47,147 nucleotides of DNA from a phage: sequence record PZ787336.1; one strand, 5' to 3'. Position numbers and translations under genes: made by a program. Numbering within the stretch: position 1 is the stretch's first letter; the number at the start of each line of letters is the position of its first letter. The notes beneath the pieces are model-generated. The model did not search any database, was not told where the DNA came from, and saw only the letters and a program-made list of their open reading frames with translations. Shown piece by piece: positions 586-11,244 of the stretch.

Positions 586-2960
586 TATTCGGTTGCTCTC
601 CTGTTGGTGTTGTAGTTTCTTGAGATGGCTTGCCCTATTGGGCCATTTTCCGAAATATCACTCACAATCGTCTCAATTGTTACGCTGCCGTCACCATTAT
701 CTCTGGCGCTGCTGCTAACCTGCGCTGAGCTGTTATTGATAATGCTATTATAAACTACAACGCCACTGCTGCCGCCTGTCAGGTCTTTGTTGCTGATAAC
801 TGAGCCATCGTTACCGGGAATCATATACTGGCGACCGTTGGACGCCTGGAATATTTCAGGCAAGCCATTTTCGCCCACTTCGTACATACTTCCGGCACTA
901 ACAGGGCCACCATTTTTACGCTTGCCAGCAATGCCCATCGCCAGAGCTCCGAGAACGGCACCTACCCCAATTGCAGCTGCCCCGCCGAATGAGCCGATTG
1001 ATGCTACGATTGCTGCAGGAGTCCATGCTGCCGTGGTAGTGGCTGCTGCCGCCGTGGATGCTGCTGTTGTGGTTGCCAGCCCTGCTGTTTGCGCCGCCGT
1101 TGTGGTTGCTGTTGCCGCAACCTGCGCAGTCTGTCCCATAACAGCAGATTTAACCCACTGCACACCCATTTCGACGAAACTATTTACCAGAGAGTTCAGC
1201 ACTGTAGATCCTAGACTGCGCATGGCATCCTGAACGCTCATTGTGCCTGTTAGCAATCCGGTGATGCTATTTGATGCCGTGCTCATTGCAGAATCAAGCG
1301 CCGTACCGAACAATTGCGCCCCGAGGCTTTGCTGCTGCCACTCTGCCCACATGGCGTCCATTCGCTGCTGGCGGTATTGTGCTTCAATTGCTGCGCGAGT
1401 CTGCTCAATCTCCTTGATTTTTTGTGGATATGCTGCGGCGTATGCGTCAAGGTCAGCCATACGTTGCTGGTATTCACTGTCAATGCCAGTCGTTGGCGAC
1501 GCAATAGCGCGCAACCCCTGATATGATTTTTCTATGCGCTGCTTTTCCTTCTCCGCTTCTGCCTGCTCCTTCAGTGCATTCTTCTGGTCCCAAATTTTCG
1601 CAGCGTACTCACCAGCCAGTTTTATTTGCTCCTGAGTGGCAGCTTTGCCAAGCGATTGCTGCGCGTTGAGAATAGCTTGTTCGCGGGAGAGTTCGCTGGT
1701 AGATGTGGCATTAAGCATGGTTTGCTGGCGTAATTTCTCCAGCTTTTCAGCAACTGACTCAGCTTGCCGTTCTTCGGCGCTTTTGCCCTTTCCTTTGCCT
1801 TTCTTGTCTTTGGTTGGTGCTTGTGCAATCTTCAGGTGTTTTGTTGCTTCAGCCTGTTTCTTTGTCTGCTCGTAACCTTCTTTTGAAGCCTTAACGAATC
1901 GCTCGACTTGATCGTTATATTGTTTTTGCTTCTCAATATCATCATCACCGAAAAGCGCATCAACCCCCATTTGTGCCCATGCGCCTGGGTTTAGCTTCGA
2001 GATAACCGTGGCGAGAGATAGAATCTTGTCGCTCGTGCTGGTTGATTTGTCGCCGAGGAAATCAATGTATTTTGCCAGCTGGTCGATAATCTCTACTGCT
2101 GTTTTTGATGCACCAGTGGCATCGTTAACGGCAACCACAAGTTTGGAGAATGAAACTTCAAGAGAACCAACAGCCTGATCCATTGTGCGAGGAAGTTTTT
2201 CAAACTCAGCATTAACGATGCTTGTCCTGTCCTGAATAGCGTTCAGTGCATCCTCTGCTGTCAGTTTGCCATCGAGCATTCTTGCGCGAAGTTCACCCAT
2301 TGAAATGCCAAGCCCAGCCGCTATCTGGCGTGCAAGCTCAGGCATCTGCTCAAGGATGGAGTTGAACTCTTCCGCACGTATTGTGCCGGATGCGATTGAC
2401 TGACCGAACTGGCGCAGGGCGTTAGCCATTTCCTCAGTTGATGACCCGCCGATTCGACCTATTTTTTGCAGGGTATCGGTAAGATTAAGAACCTGAGCAT
2501 TTGTTGCACCAGCCTCTTTCAGTGATGACGTCAATGTCTCCCACAACTTCGTAGTATCACTCAGGCTTGCACCAGTGGTTGAGGCGATATTTGCCAGTGT
2601 GCTGAATGTTTCGTTTGCTGTTTTCGCGTCAGTTGACAGGCGAGCAATCCTTGCCTGAAGTTGAGTCATGTTATCGGCAACCTCAAGGAATCGCTTGCCC
2701 CATTCGATAATCAGTGACACGGATATTGCGCCAGCAAGAGCTGTCATCTGAGTTTTTAAACCAGAAACAGAGCCAGACAGTCCGCCAAATGTTTTGCCAG
2801 TTTTTTTTGCTGCGTTATCAACACCATTAAGTGTATCGGTTGCTGACGCTCCTGATTTAACGAATCGTCCAAATTCATCTCTCGCGCGTTGCGTGCCTTT
2901 TTTTAGCCCCTCAACATCCATCCCGACTTCATAGACGATTCCGCCGACTTCTTCAGCCAT
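585..2960 (-). CDS. tail tape measure protein
   Basis: 791 aa, long alpha-helical/coiled-coil-like sequence, Ala/Thr/Gly-rich hydrophobic C-terminal region; sits between chaperone-like gene and minor tail genes. Confidence 0.9.
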
Positions 2961-9324: not shown

Positions 9325-10134
9325 ATGAAAACACTTAGCAAAATCTATTCAGACAAAGAAACGCGCAACGGAATCGCTGTTAACAAAACCTATCTCGTGC
9401 CAGTGGAGCAAATCTATCTGGAGCCGGGATACAACATCCGCGAAGCAGACGAGCAGCATGTGGAGTATTTCGCGCAGTGCTGGGAATCAGGTCAGCCATT
9501 ACCAGCATTAACAGTTATTCCTGATGAGAAGGGAATCCGCATTCTTGATGGTCAGCATCGCTATCTAGGCGCATTGCGTGCCATTGAGCGTGGCGCACCA
9601 ATTGTTCGTATTGAGTGCAAGGATTTCACAGGAGGCGAAGCAGATAAAATCGCCTTCATGGTGTCGTCCAGTCAGGGTAAGCAGCTTGACCCGTTTGAAC
9701 GCGCAAAGGCTTACACGCGACTGAAGGGTTTTGGCTGGACCAACGAGGAAATCGCCAAGAAGGTAGGGCGCTCAGTTTCTGACGTGCAGATGCACCTGTC
9801 ACTGGGTGATGTGCCAGCCGAAGTAAAAGCGCGAATCAGTGCAGGGCAAATCAGCTATGCAAATGCCGTAGCAGTAACTCGCGAACATGGCGATGATGCG
9901 GTTAAAGTTATCGACGAGGCAGTCGAAGAAGCGAAGGCGCAAGGCAAGGATAAGGTAACGGCGAAGGTGCTTAAGTCGAAAAAGATTAAGCCAGTAGACC
10001 GACTGATTGAGTTACTGAAGCCAGCTGACCACGTTATTCTTCCTGCTGGTCATGTAGTGGCAGAGAATGAGGAGTTTATCCAGATTCCTGTTGCTGATAT
10101 TCACGAGGTGATGGCAATTCTGGAGAAGATGTGA
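9325..10134 (+). CDS. ParB-like nuclease domain protein
   Basis: N-terminal ParB/Srx-like region with the GIRILDGQHRYLGA-type motif; start at ATG 9325 directly after the upstream stop. Confidence 0.7.
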   Translation: MKTLSKIYSDKETRNGIAVNKTYLVPVEQIYLEPGYNIREADEQHVEYFAQCWESGQPLPALTVIPDEKGIRILDGQHRYLGALRAIERGAPIVRIECKDFTGGEADKIAFMVSSSQGKQLDPFERAKAYTRLKGFGWTNEEIAKKVGRSVSDVQMHLSLGDVPAEVKARISAGQISYANAVAVTREHGDDAVKVIDEAVEEAKAQGKDKVTAKVLKSKKIKPVDRLIELLKPADHVILPAGHVVAENEEFIQIPVADIHEVMAILEKM

Positions 10135-10931
10135 TGATGGTCCACTATTACAATGAGTGGGACAAGGGCGCAGCGGCATGGCTGCGTGAATTAATTAACA
10201 ATAAACTAATTCCTTACGGATATGTCGATGAACGATCAATCACCGAAGTCACCCCTTCAGACCTGGAAGGATTTACACAGTGTCACTTCTTTGCCGGAAT
10301 CGGAGGGTGGCCCCTTGCACTCCAGCTGGCAGGAATACCAGAAAGCACTCGACTCTGGACAGGATCACCACCTTGCCAGCCGTTTAGCGTTGCCGGTAAG
10401 TCTCTCGGATTTGACGACGATCGACACCTTGCCCCAGCATTTCTCAGGCTCATCAGAGAGTGCAAGCCTGAATTGCTGTTTGGAGAGCAGGTTGCAGCAG
10501 CAATTGGGAAGCACTGGCTCGATTTTGTATTCCTTAACCTGGAAGACAAAGGCTACGCCTGCGGGGCGTCAGTATTGCCAGCTTGCAGCGTCGGCTCTCC
10601 ACAGGAAAGGAAAAGAATCATCTTTGGCGCGAGGATGGGCGACACCAACGGCGCGAGGATGGAAGGATTACGGGAATCTCAGCAAGTCATTTTACAGAAA
10701 GGACGGGAAATTCAGGAACGATACTCTTTATCGCCAGATGTGGCTTCATGTTTATGGGATTCATGGAAACCCAACCATGGAGCAGATAAGGAAACTAGAG
10801 TCATACCAGGCGGATTTTGCGAGGCAACTCATGGGGTATCCGCAAGAGTGGGACGATTGCGCGGTTATGGTAATGCCATAGTTCCACAAGTCGCAGCAGA
10901 ATTCATTAAAGCATTCATGAGGTCCGTTTAA
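10131..10931 (+). CDS. DNA cytosine-5 methyltransferase (orphan); reading frame in the middle part uncertain
   Basis: motifs FAGIGG (I), PPCQPFS (IV), SPQERKRIIF (VIII), GNAIVP (X) in this frame; RQLMGYPQEW (motif IX-like) lies in the overlapping frame 10222..10881. Confidence 0.75.
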   Translation: MMMVHYYNEWDKGAAAWLRELINNKLIPYGYVDERSITEVTPSDLEGFTQCHFFAGIGGWPLALQLAGIPESTRLWTGSPPCQPFSVAGKSLGFDDDRHLAPAFLRLIRECKPELLFGEQVAAAIGKHWLDFVFLNLEDKGYACGASVLPACSVGSPQERKRIIFGARMGDTNGARMEGLRESQQVILQKGREIQERYSLSPDVASCLWDSWKPNHGADKETRVIPGGFCEATHGVSARVGRLRGYGNAIVPQVAAEFIKAFMRSV

Positions 10932-11104
10932 TGACACCAGAACAATTCATTGAAAAACAACTTCGCACCAAGCTGCCTGACATTGACCAGATGGCAATTG
11001 ATGCGGCGATTCAGTATTACAAGCGCAATCAGAGCGCAAAGAAGGGTGGCATTTTTGAAGAATGCCTGAAGGTTGCAAAACAACACATGATTAAGGTGAA
11101 GTGA
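10931..11104 (+). CDS. hypothetical small protein (57 aa)
   Basis: ATG overlaps the methyltransferase stop (TAATGA); coupled to the next ORF. Confidence 0.3.
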   Translation: MTPEQFIEKQLRTKLPDIDQMAIDAAIQYYKRNQSAKKGGIFEECLKVAKQHMIKVK

Positions 11105-11244
11105 TGAAACTAAAAATTAGCAAATTATTACTTGAATCAGCATTAATATTTCAGGGTCGCAATGATGTGCGATATTACCTGAATGGAATCTGCTTCATGC
11201 CTGATGGTCGCATTGCATCAACTGACGGTCATCGCGCGTGGTGA
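11104..11244 (+). CDS. 46-aa ORF resembling a fragment of the DnaN beta sliding clamp
   Basis: NDVRYYLNGICFMPDGRIASTDGHR matches the conserved DnaN stretch QDVRYYLNGMLF...ATDGHRLA; stops after 46 codons, terminator follows. Confidence 0.4.
   Translation: MKLKISKLLLESALIFQGRNDVRYYLNGICFMPDGRIASTDGHRAW

What the first reader, a model, noticed from the sequence alone, without database searches (positions are those of the whole stretch)
10131..10931. Orphan C5-cytosine methyltransferase with a region where two frames both carry methyltransferase-like motifs
Frame 1 (10131..10931) has motifs I (FAGIGG), IV (PPCQPFS), VIII (SPQERKRIIF) and X (GNAIVP). The overlapping frame (10222..10881) has WATPTARGWKDYGN and a motif IX-like RQLMGYPQEW just before frame 1 resumes with GYGNAIVP. 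Either the target-recognition region is misread because of indels, or the gene is unusually compact. No cognate restriction enzyme is adjacent, so this is probably an anti-restriction or epigenetic methyltransferase.
Basis: partly seen in the sequence, partly recalled or inferred. Interest (0 to 1): 0.5.

Follow-up and report, generated by a model that had tools for sequence, protein, structure and literature searches.

The report
Methyltransferase gene with nested second gene
This phage cytosine-methyltransferase gene carries a second, 219-codon gene in its +1 reading frame, which evolution has kept intact and which encodes the one methyltransferase motif the main protein lacks, so the enzyme is probably made of two proteins read from the same DNA, as in the known E. 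coli enzyme M.EcoHK31I.

Summary
Frame 1 (10131/10134..10931) encodes a C5-cytosine methyltransferase with motifs I, IV, VI, VIII and X. The +1 frame (10222..10881) is open for 219 codons and carries WATPTARGWKD and RQLMGYPQEW.

This is neither an indel artefact nor a coincidence. The +1 ORF is open across nearly the whole gene in about 80 of 87 related loci from E. coli, Klebsiella, Vibrio and Rhodobacter phages and prophages. In the window it is far longer than synonymous-codon shuffles allow (P<0.0005). Substitution patterns show purifying selection alternating between the two frames. Frame 2 is the better conserved frame in a beta-hairpin block, in the variable middle and marginally at the motif IX block. 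Frame 1 is better conserved at motifs I-VI, VIII and X.

An internal ATG with a Shine-Dalgarno-like sequence is maintained in most relatives through the codon choice of frame 1. The frame-2 profile matches motif IX of a single-chain phage C5 methyltransferase (E 1.3e-5).

Best reading: a two-polypeptide enzyme, with alpha as the catalytic core and beta, nested in another frame, supplying motif IX and probably DNA-recognition modules. This is the architecture shown experimentally for M.EcoHK31I. It is a new member of a known kind, unannotated in this phage's close relatives, and the family is very large. Activity and translation of beta are untested.

The parts
10134..10931 (+). alpha gene: C5-cytosine methyltransferase catalytic polypeptide. 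An alternative GTG start lies at 10131. The ATG at 10134 overlaps the TGA stop of the upstream ParB-like gene by 1 nt.
   Evidence: ORF listed. Pfam PF00145 at 1e-21. M.HhaI is matched over motifs IV-VIII at 2e-15, and hhalign against M.HhaI gives E 1e-13. PHROG 363 at 3e-75. Homologues are annotated from the equivalent ATG in phages HC6 and Bas80.
10222..10881 (+). beta gene: nested +1-frame ORF of 219 codons. The second ATG at 10228 is the one conserved in relatives. Not annotated in the closest phage records.
   Evidence: ORF listed. It exceeds all 2000 synonymous-codon shuffles. More than 200 homologous predicted proteins were found, and 25,209 cluster representatives at E<=1e-3. It matches PHROG 1008. 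Selection on this frame is shown.
10217..10230 (+). Putative beta translation start: GGA (10217-10219) followed by ATG 10222 and ATG 10228. These lie inside the alpha codons G-Y-V-D-E.
   Evidence: In relatives the ATG is created by the alpha codons GAT GAr, often as TAG-ATG, and is preceded by GGAG or AGG. Where Asp is GAC, a second ATG from GAT GTn is used, in several cases with AGGAG 8 nt upstream formed by Arg-Ser codons AGG AGY. The Shine-Dalgarno-like sequence in the window itself is weak.
10287..10310 (+). alpha motif I, FFAGIGGW (AdoMet binding)
10368..10388 (+). alpha motif IV, PPCQPFS (catalytic cysteine)
10479..10493 (+). alpha motif VI, FGEQV (an ENV variant)
10525..10593 (+). beta conserved block LYSLTWKTKATPAGRQYCQLAAS, predicted to be a beta-hairpin. 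It overlaps the variable alpha segment between motifs VI and VIII.
   Evidence: AlphaFold2 pLDDT is 76-85 here, the best part of the beta model. This block is 0.81 identical in the beta frame against 0.73 in the alpha frame across 340 pairs. The underlying alpha codons are xTG in 41 of 45 and GAA in 44 of 45 sequences, which preserves the beta residues W-K.
10596..10625 (+). alpha motif VIII, SPQERKRIIF
   Evidence: The substitution pattern here is that of frame 1, with second-position change near 0.00.
10636..10668 (+). beta W-x-T-P-x-A-x-D-type module, WATPTARGWKD. There is one copy here and up to 6 or more in relatives.
   Evidence: Alignments. The same kind of module lies in frame in the single-chain Mycobacterium phage Filuzino gp68.
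10626..10662 (+). 13-nt direct repeat ggcgcgaggatgg, two copies 24 nt apart, spanning the beta module (ARGW...ARGW)
   Evidence: Read directly from the sequence. Not analysed further.
10801..10851 (+). beta motif IX, SYQADFARQLMGYPQEW
   Evidence: hhalign of the beta profile hits motif IX of Filuzino gp68 (E 1.3e-5, probability 81%). Its only local hit on M.HhaI is HhaI motif IX, residues 270-290 (E 0.077). The alpha Val codon under the beta Trp is GTG in 56 of 63 sequences.
10869..10886 (+). alpha motif X, GNAIVP, preceded by RVGRLRGY
   Evidence: This block is 0.98 identical in the alpha frame against 0.75 in the beta frame. It aligns to the linker plus motif X of Filuzino gp68.

Best explanation
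The locus holds two genes in one stretch of DNA.

The alpha gene (frame 1) encodes the catalytic core of a C5-cytosine DNA methyltransferase, with motifs I, IV, VI, VIII and X, but it has no selected motif IX. Its stretch between motifs VIII and X is mostly the unselected shadow of the other frame.

The beta gene lies entirely inside alpha in the +1 frame. It most likely starts at its own internal ATG (10222 or 10228). Its first 40-75 residues appear disordered and unconstrained. They are followed by a conserved beta-hairpin block, one W-x-T-P-x-A-x-D module and a canonical motif IX.

By inference, alpha and beta associate to form the active enzyme. Beta would complete the small, DNA-recognition domain. 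This is what was shown experimentally for M.EcoHK31I, whose beta chain is encoded wholly within the alpha gene in another frame and carries motif IX.

The enzyme is an orphan phage methyltransferase and presumably protects phage DNA from restriction.

Shown here: both ORFs exist, both are under purifying selection in interleaved blocks, and the beta block is homologous to motif IX. Inferred: translation of beta, formation of a heterodimer, the requirement for both chains, and the biological role.
For: 1. The +1 ORF is conserved. It is open from about nt 55-200 to within 10-90 nt of the alpha stop in about 80 of 87 loci whose alpha proteins are as little as 39% identical. The longest open stretch in the +2 frame is only 150-350 nt. 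In the window, none of 2000 synonymous shuffles reached the observed length.

2. tblastn with the frame-2 peptide hits methyltransferase genes of Klebsiella phage SBP (6e-29), Vibrio phage Fayden (5e-8), K1ind1 (4e-5) and Rhodobacter phage RcDora (2e-3). In every case the hit is in the +1 frame of the annotated CDS.

3. Selection alternates between the frames. Mismatch rates by alpha codon position switch from 0.12/0.07/0.27 at motifs I-VIII to 0.22-0.36/0.10-0.17/0.10-0.15 at the hairpin block and 0.25-0.35/0.15-0.20/0.16-0.20 in the middle, then return to the frame-1 pattern from about 10 codons before GNA.

4. Amino-acid identity, alpha versus beta frame, across 340 pairs: motifs I-VI 0.88/0.66; hairpin 0.73/0.81; motif VIII 0.93/0.70; middle 0.69/0.77; motif IX block 0.86/0.88; motif X 0.98/0.75.

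5. Synonymous alpha sites are frozen where beta needs them. The Val codon is GTG in 56 of 63 sequences, the Glu codon is GAA in 44 of 45, and several Pro and Gly third positions have low entropy.

6. Within the window's own clade there are 14 alpha-synonymous changes in 10131-10342 but only 2 in 10343-10860 (Fisher p 7e-7). The three alpha replacements in the middle are radical, while the matching beta changes are conservative or silent.

7. Most relatives keep an internal ATG with a Shine-Dalgarno-like sequence, built from alpha codon choice.

8. The beta profile matches motif IX of a single-chain C5 methyltransferase. The alpha C-terminus aligns to the linker plus motif X, not to motif IX.

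9. The AlphaFold2 model of beta has a disordered N-terminus and its best-ordered parts at the hairpin and C-terminal helices, matching the selection map.

10. The precedent, M.EcoHK31I, is described in PMC2836561.
Against: There is no direct evidence here that beta is translated or that it binds alpha.

The Shine-Dalgarno-like sequence in this window is weak (GGA only).

The beta structure model has low overall confidence (mean pLDDT 56.7) and found no structural match. The alpha model failed (pLDDT 38), so the claim that the alpha middle is unstructured rests on sequence patterns alone.

The hhalign match to M.HhaI motif IX is weak on its own (E 0.077).

Alpha keeps a motif-IX-like string (R-x-V/I-x-P...G-V/I-P/S) at the same nucleotides, so some motif IX function in alpha cannot be excluded.

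The M.EcoHK31I sequence could not be obtained, so homology to it, as opposed to analogy, is untested.

The low diversity in the window clade could partly reflect recent recombination.
Confidence: 0.7

Rival explanations
1. Frame 2 is translated only through programmed ribosomal frameshifting. This would give either a single chain (frame 1, then 2, then 1) with the element order of single-chain phage enzymes, or a fusion of the alpha N-terminus to beta.
For: The single-chain Mycobacterium phage Filuzino gp68 has motifs I-VIII, the xPTP modules, motif IX and motif X in one frame in that order. One database protein, P0042, is a frame-1 N-terminus fused to frame 2.
Against: The selected beta hairpin block lies upstream of alpha motif VIII on the DNA, so a shift after motif VIII would miss it.

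Frame 2 stays open about 100 codons upstream of any useful shift site, with a conserved ATG and Shine-Dalgarno-like sequence in most relatives.

No conserved slippery motif was noticed at the junctions, although this was inspected only by eye.

P0042 comes from a single contig and lacks motifs VI-VIII.
Confidence: 0.1
2. Beta is a real protein, but its function is not to complete the methyltransferase. It could be, for example, a regulator, an anti-defence factor or a DNA-binding protein overprinted on the gene.
For: Beta matches no Pfam, PDB or NCBIfam family. In some genomes the beta ORF runs on into endonuclease VII, Dam or PD-(D/E)XK domains. Alpha retains a motif-IX-like string.
Against: The conserved C-terminal block of beta is homologous to motif IX of single-chain C5 methyltransferases, and its modules occur in frame in such enzymes. 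Beta is always nested in this methyltransferase family. The experimentally studied M.EcoHK31I has the same layout and needs beta for activity.
Confidence: 0.12
3. Frame 2 is a non-functional by-product. Its openness and motifs follow passively from conservation of the alpha protein and from base composition.
For: In G+C-rich relatives long +1 ORFs are not rare (synonymous-shuffle P of 0.03-0.09 for some). The extreme C-terminal frame-2 similarity (DDCAVM) does follow from alpha RLRGYGNA.
Against: In three blocks the beta frame is as well or better conserved than the alpha frame (hairpin and middle clearly, the motif IX block only marginally), and the most variable position is the beta wobble position. 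Four-fold degenerate alpha sites are frozen exactly where beta needs them. In relatives with about 50% G+C the ORF length exceeds all or nearly all shuffles.
Confidence: 0.04
4. Sequencing or assembly indels, or a decaying pseudogene, have put the target-recognition region in the wrong frame.
For: None beyond the first impression that motifs sit in two frames.
Against: Frame 1 is uninterrupted. The layout is the same in independently sequenced phages at 98-99% identity and in about 80 distant genomes. Both frames are under selection.
Confidence: 0.01

Closest known systems
M.EcoHK31I (E. coli HK31; Lee, Kam and Shaw 1995, as described in PMC2836561)
   Same: It is a C5-cytosine methyltransferase made of two polypeptides. 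[quoted passage not shown] The N-terminal 42 or so residues of beta are dispensable, and several internal Met codons can start beta. That fits the unconstrained, disordered beta N-terminus and the two ATGs seen here.
   Different: M.EcoHK31I belongs to a restriction-modification system (YGGCCR), whereas this gene is an orphan in a phage. The literature places the target-recognition domain of M.EcoHK31I in alpha. Here the alpha middle looks like an unselected shadow, and beta carries the conserved hairpin and W-x-T-P module.
M.AquI (natural two-subunit C5 methyltransferase; from established knowledge)
   Same: The catalytic and recognition parts lie on two polypeptides that must associate.
   Different: The two M.AquI genes are adjacent rather than nested in alternative frames, and its second subunit carries both motifs IX and X. 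Here motif X stays in alpha.
Single-chain actinophage C5 methyltransferases, e.g. Mycobacterium phage Filuzino gp68
   Same: They contain the same elements: motifs I-VIII, repeated xPTPxAxD modules, an L-x-x-x-F-x-E-W-M-M-G-x-P-x-G-W motif IX and G-N-G-V-x-P-Q-Q-A motif X. The beta profile matches their motif IX.
   Different: All elements lie in one reading frame and one polypeptide. Motifs I-II-III are in the canonical order.
Escherichia phage K1ind1 ORF29/ORF28, and PHROG families 363 and 1008
   Same: They are direct homologues of alpha and beta. The K1ind1 record annotates both overlapping ORFs as 'DNA methyltransferase', and PHROGs holds separate families for each frame.
   Different: These are annotations only. 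No interpretation as a two-subunit enzyme was found in the searched literature.

Membership tests
C5-cytosine DNA methyltransferase (Pfam PF00145) | Catalytic-domain motifs I (FxGxG), IV (PCQ), VI (ENV-like) and VIII (QxRxR) in one polypeptide | tested here: met
   Alpha matches PF00145 at 1e-21. It matches M.HhaI at 2e-15 by hmmsearch and E 1e-13 by hhalign, covering motifs I and IV-VIII.
C5-cytosine DNA methyltransferase (Pfam PF00145) | Motif X (GNxVxP) at the C-terminus | tested here: met
   GNAIVP lies at 10869-10886. It is invariant across 63 unique relatives and aligns to motif X of Filuzino gp68 (weak E of 0.04).
C5-cytosine DNA methyltransferase (Pfam PF00145) | Motif IX in the same polypeptide, between the target-recognition region and motif X | tested here: not met
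   The alpha C-terminus aligns to the linker plus motif X, not to motif IX. At the motif-IX-like alpha string, the positions that vary are those that leave beta unchanged. The selected motif IX is in the +1 frame.
EcoHK31I-type two-polypeptide C5 methyltransferase | Beta ORF lies entirely inside the alpha gene, on the same strand, in a different frame | tested here: met
   Beta (10222..10881) lies within alpha (10131/10134..10931) in the +1 frame. The same holds in about 80 of 87 related loci.
EcoHK31I-type two-polypeptide C5 methyltransferase | Beta carries motif IX | tested here: met
   The beta profile against Filuzino gp68 hits its motif IX (E 1.3e-5, probability 81%). Its only local hit on M.HhaI is HhaI motif IX (E 0.077).
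EcoHK31I-type two-polypeptide C5 methyltransferase | Beta is translated from its own start as a separate chain | tested here: inconclusive
   Most relatives keep an internal ATG with a Shine-Dalgarno-like sequence, and the ORF is open from about nt 90. There are no expression data, and the Shine-Dalgarno-like sequence in this window is weak.
EcoHK31I-type two-polypeptide C5 methyltransferase | Both polypeptides are required and associate for methylation | not testable with these tools
   This needs biochemistry or a complex prediction.
EcoHK31I-type two-polypeptide C5 methyltransferase | Sequence homology to M.EcoHK31I alpha and beta | not testable with these tools
   The original paper is not held, and a GenBank accession recalled from memory was not in the collections.
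M.AquI-type split methyltransferase | Two adjacent, non-overlapping genes, with the second subunit carrying motifs IX and X | tested here: not met
   The genes are nested, and motif X is in alpha.
Programmed-frameshift gene | A conserved slippery site at the frame junction, with the second frame needed only downstream of it | tested here: not met
   No conserved slippery motif was seen at the junctions, by eye only. Frame 2 is open and has a start codon about 100 codons upstream of the first selected beta block. The selected blocks of the two frames overlap on the same nucleotides.

The most novel reading that the evidence does not exclude
A very large class of phage and prophage 'Dcm-like' orphan methyltransferases are obligate alpha/beta enzymes encoded by nested overlapping genes. 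The class comprises at least 25,000 protein clusters at 50% identity, found in Enterobacteria, Vibrio, Rhodobacter and others, and includes P2-like prophages. In this reading the whole DNA-recognition part (hairpin, a variable number of W-P-T-P modules, motif IX) is read from the +1 frame, and what databases annotate as the target-recognition region of the enzyme is an untranslated-sense shadow. Specificity would then evolve by gain and loss of modules in a frame that current annotation ignores. Layouts such as Streptomyces phage Raleigh (modules in +1, motif IX in alpha) and Filuzino (all in one frame) would be stages of one evolutionary series.
Probability: 0.4. Interest if true: 0.7.

Novelty: new member of a known kind. 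Interest (0 to 1): 0.6.

Why it matters
Long same-strand overlapping genes are rare and often disputed in bacteria and phages. This one is about 660 nt long and has clear comparative evidence that both frames are selected.

If beta is needed for activity, several practical consequences follow:
- Cloning or annotating alpha alone would give an inactive or mis-specified enzyme.
- Predicting specificity from the alpha 'target-recognition region' would be meaningless.
- Synonymous recoding of the gene would damage a second protein.
- Gene callers that keep only one of the two ORFs (alpha in most phage records, beta in some prophages) lose half of the enzyme.

The work also links a 1995 curiosity, M.EcoHK31I, to a very widespread phage gene family.

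Tried and rejected
- The AlphaFold2 model of alpha, built on an alignment of 121 close homologues, failed (pLDDT 38). It therefore gave no structural evidence on the alpha middle region.
- A Foldseek search of the low-confidence beta model against the PDB gave no hit at E<=0.001.
- The beta profile found nothing in the PDB, Pfam or NCBIfam.
- The original M.EcoHK31I paper is not held. Its supplement-bearing follow-up has no supplementary files held. A remembered GenBank accession was not in the collections. Homology to M.EcoHK31I is therefore untested.
- Genomic context for the Tatumella 'restriction enzyme' beta homologue P0038 was not on record.
- Literature searches for a prior description of the overlap in phage methyltransferases found none. 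The Antonov 2013 frameshift survey and the E. coli out-of-frame remodelling paper do not mention it.
- An indel or pseudogene, coincidence, and simple frameshifting were each considered and rejected. The reasons are given under the rival explanations.
- One script misaligned phage Bas71 by 9 nt. It was redone correctly.
Full report
**What is in the sequence**

The window is a siphophage genome about 47 kb long. The stretch queried (window 9900-11200, which includes the gene) is 98-99% identical to Escherichia phages HC6, 6947, HC8A and Bas77-80.

At the reported position there are two long ORFs on the same strand. Frame 1 runs 10131..10931 (266 aa from GTG). Relatives annotate the ATG at 10134, which overlaps the stop of the upstream ParB-like gene. 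Frame 2 (+1) runs 10222..10881 (219 aa).

Frame 1 is a C5-cytosine methyltransferase: Pfam PF00145 at 1e-21, M.HhaI at 2e-15 over motifs IV-VIII, and hhalign E 1e-13. Frame 2 matches nothing in Pfam, PDB or NCBIfam.

**It is not an error**

Frame 1 is uninterrupted. Thousands of predicted proteins match it (7999 at E<=1e-10), and most of the closest listed match over 98-100% of its length. Close relatives annotate the same 265-aa product. The indel explanation therefore fails.

**Frame 2 is not a coincidence**

A tblastn search with the frame-2 peptide found methyltransferase genes in distant phages: Klebsiella SBP (6e-29), Vibrio Fayden (5e-8), K1ind1 (4e-5) and Rhodobacter RcDora (2e-3). In each, the hit lies in the +1 frame of the annotated methyltransferase CDS, and a +1 ORF of 224-348 aa spans almost the whole gene.

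Across 87 loci, the +1 frame is open in about 80 from roughly nt 55-200 after the alpha start to 10-90 nt before the alpha stop. That is 660-1380 nt. The longest open stretch in the +2 frame is 150-350 nt.

For the window, the 669-nt open stretch exceeds every one of 2000 synonymous-codon shuffles (mean 229, maximum 639) and every one of 2000 codon permutations. The test is weaker in G+C-rich relatives.

**Both frames are under selection, in alternating blocks**

I analysed 340 gene pairs at 72-98% nucleotide identity. The table gives the mismatch rate at alpha codon positions 1, 2 and 3.

| Region | Position 1 | Position 2 | Position 3 | Pattern |
|---|---|---|---|---|
| Motifs I-VIII (pooled) | 0.12 | 0.07 | 0.27 | ordinary frame 1 |
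| 35-20 codons before the end of motif VIII | 0.22-0.36 | 0.10-0.17 | 0.10-0.15 | beta wobble most variable |
| Motif VIII | not stated | about 0.00 | 0.22-0.37 | frame 1 |
| Variable middle | 0.25-0.35 | 0.15-0.20 | 0.16-0.20 | frame 2 |
| 35-15 codons before GNA | highest of the three | low | low | all low, frame 2 |
| About 10 codons before GNA to the end | — | — | — | frame 1 |

Amino-acid identity in the two frames tells the same story.

| Region | Alpha frame | Beta frame |
|---|---|---|
| Motifs I-VI | 0.88 | 0.66 |
| Hairpin block | 0.73 | 0.81 |
| Motif VIII | 0.93 | 0.70 |
| Middle | 0.69 | 0.77 |
| Motif IX block | 0.86 | 0.88 |
| Pre-X and motif X | 0.98 | 0.75 |
| Alpha C-terminus | 0.82 | 0.58 |

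Individual codons show the same constraint. The alpha Val in R-V-G is GTG in 56 of 63 unique sequences, which keeps the Trp of beta P-x-E-W. The alpha 'P' of G-I-P varies as P, A, S or T at its first base, while the overlapping beta Pro is invariant. The alpha L-E codons under beta W-K are xTG in 41 of 45 sequences and GAA in 44 of 45.

In the window's own clade there are 14 alpha-synonymous changes in 10131-10342 but only 2 in 10343-10860 (Fisher p 7e-7). The three alpha replacements in the middle (E>G, V>D, E>K) correspond to N>D, S>T and a silent change in beta. Recent recombination could contribute to this last pattern. The family-wide result does not depend on it.

**How frame 2 is probably expressed**

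In most relatives a +1-frame ATG is created by the alpha codons GAT GAr of the conserved V-D-E-R-S-I. It often follows a +1 stop directly (TAG-ATG) and is preceded by GGAG or AGG supplied by the conserved Gly codon.

Where Asp is GAC, a second ATG from GAT GTn is used. In several of those genes the alpha Arg-Ser codons are AGG AGY, which gives AGGAG 8 nt upstream.

In the window the candidates are ATG 10222 and ATG 10228, with only a weak GGA upstream.

Frameshifting is unlikely for three reasons:
- The selected beta hairpin block lies upstream of alpha motif VIII on the DNA.
- Beta motif IX and the alpha pre-X linker use the same nucleotides.
- Frame 2 is kept open about 100 codons before its first selected block.

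**What beta is**

Beta-type ORFs form a very large family. A profile search found 25,209 cluster representatives at E<=1e-3 and 7,916 at E<=1e-30. They lack any Pfam domain and are named 'hypothetical' or, in PHROG 1008, 'DNA methyltransferase'.

The conserved elements are a Y-x-L-T-W-K...T-P-x-G-R block, one to more than six W-P-T-P-x-A-x-D modules, and a C-terminal L-N-P-x-x-S-R-W-L-M-G-x-P-x-E-W.

The AlphaFold2 model has low overall confidence (mean pLDDT 56.7). It shows a disordered N-terminus (residues 1-77), a hairpin at 103-125 (pLDDT 76-85) and C-terminal helices. This mirrors the selection map.

The same kinds of module and the same C-terminal motif occur in frame in single-chain actinophage C5 methyltransferases. 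Mycobacterium phage Filuzino gp68 has PF00145 at residues 1-188, seven LLPTPxAxD modules, then RLTAAFPEWMMGWPAGW followed by GNGVCPQQA. The beta profile aligns to that motif IX (E 1.3e-5, probability 81%). Its only local hit on M.HhaI is HhaI motif IX (E 0.077).

The alpha C-terminus aligns to the Filuzino linker plus motif X, not to motif IX. So alpha lacks a selected motif IX and beta supplies one.

**Comparison with what is known**

This is the gene architecture reported for M.EcoHK31I. [quoted passage not shown] Alpha has motifs I-VIII, X and the target-recognition domain, beta has motif IX, and both chains are needed. The first 42 beta residues are dispensable in vitro, and internal Met codons can start beta.

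The layout features that can be tested here are met. The biochemical features cannot be tested, and neither can sequence homology to M.EcoHK31I.

There are differences. This gene is an orphan in a phage. Beta also appears to carry recognition modules, while the alpha middle looks like a shadow of the other frame.

I found no paper that connects phage methyltransferases with this architecture. The K1ind1 record does annotate both ORFs.

**Verdict**

The best explanation is an EcoHK31I-type two-polypeptide C5 methyltransferase with a nested beta gene. I put confidence that beta is a selected coding sequence at about 0.9, and confidence in the full two-subunit model at about 0.7.

Novelty: a new member of a known kind. 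Interest is moderate to high, because the overlap is long, demonstrably selected, very widespread and largely unannotated.

Noticed in passing
L003 1822..3159 (Klebsiella phage ZX4); proteins P0241 and P0248: In some relatives the beta-frame ORF has no stop before the next gene. In ZX4 it runs on as one 445-aa ORF into an endonuclease VII/HNH-type domain that the record annotates separately. Other beta-type proteins continue into a Dam domain (P0241) or a DUF2800/PD-(D/E)XK nuclease domain (P0248). It is unclear whether these are real fusions or read-through calls by gene finders.
   Followed up: partly
L089 163..1722 and 803..1537 (Streptomyces phage Raleigh): The layout is intermediate. A nested +1 ORF of 244 aa carries LLPTP-type modules, but motifs IX and X are both in the annotated methyltransferase frame. 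The annotated protein's middle is low-complexity 'shadow' sequence.
   Followed up: partly
window 10140-10310 (alpha residues 4-60): The alpha N-terminus YYNEWDKGAAAWLR resembles M.HhaI motif II (YSNEWDKYA), and VDERSITEV...DL resembles motif III, but both lie before motif I (FFAGIGGW). hhalign to M.HhaI needs a 36-residue gap between motifs I and IV, exactly where HhaI has motifs II-III. This suggests a permuted order II-III-I-IV. The local HMMER score for the motif II match is not significant.
   Followed up: no
window 10626-10638 and 10650-10662: A 13-nt direct repeat, ggcgcgaggatgg, with copies 24 nt apart, brackets the single W-x-T-P module of beta (…ARGWATPTARGWKD…). It may be a footprint of module gain or loss by recombination.
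   Followed up: no
L091 3892..4698 (metagenome contig carrying a P2/186-like prophage): The same short alpha/beta pair sits between a DUF5405 gene and the gpA replication gene of a P2/186-like prophage. The gene caller kept only the beta ORF and dropped the methyltransferase frame.
   Followed up: yes
window 10880 compared with L088 (phage Bas71): In Bas71 the beta stop codon TAG is changed to TCG and a new stop appears 4 codons later. Both changes are silent in alpha, so the exact C-terminal end of beta is not conserved.
   Followed up: no
window 10144-10922 compared with phages Bas71, Bas75, Bas76 and XY2: The methyltransferase gene alone is 97% identical in phages whose flanking genes differ (a Holliday junction resolvase and a helicase instead of ParB-like and small ORFs). 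The alpha/beta cassette therefore moves between phage backbones as a unit.
   Followed up: partly
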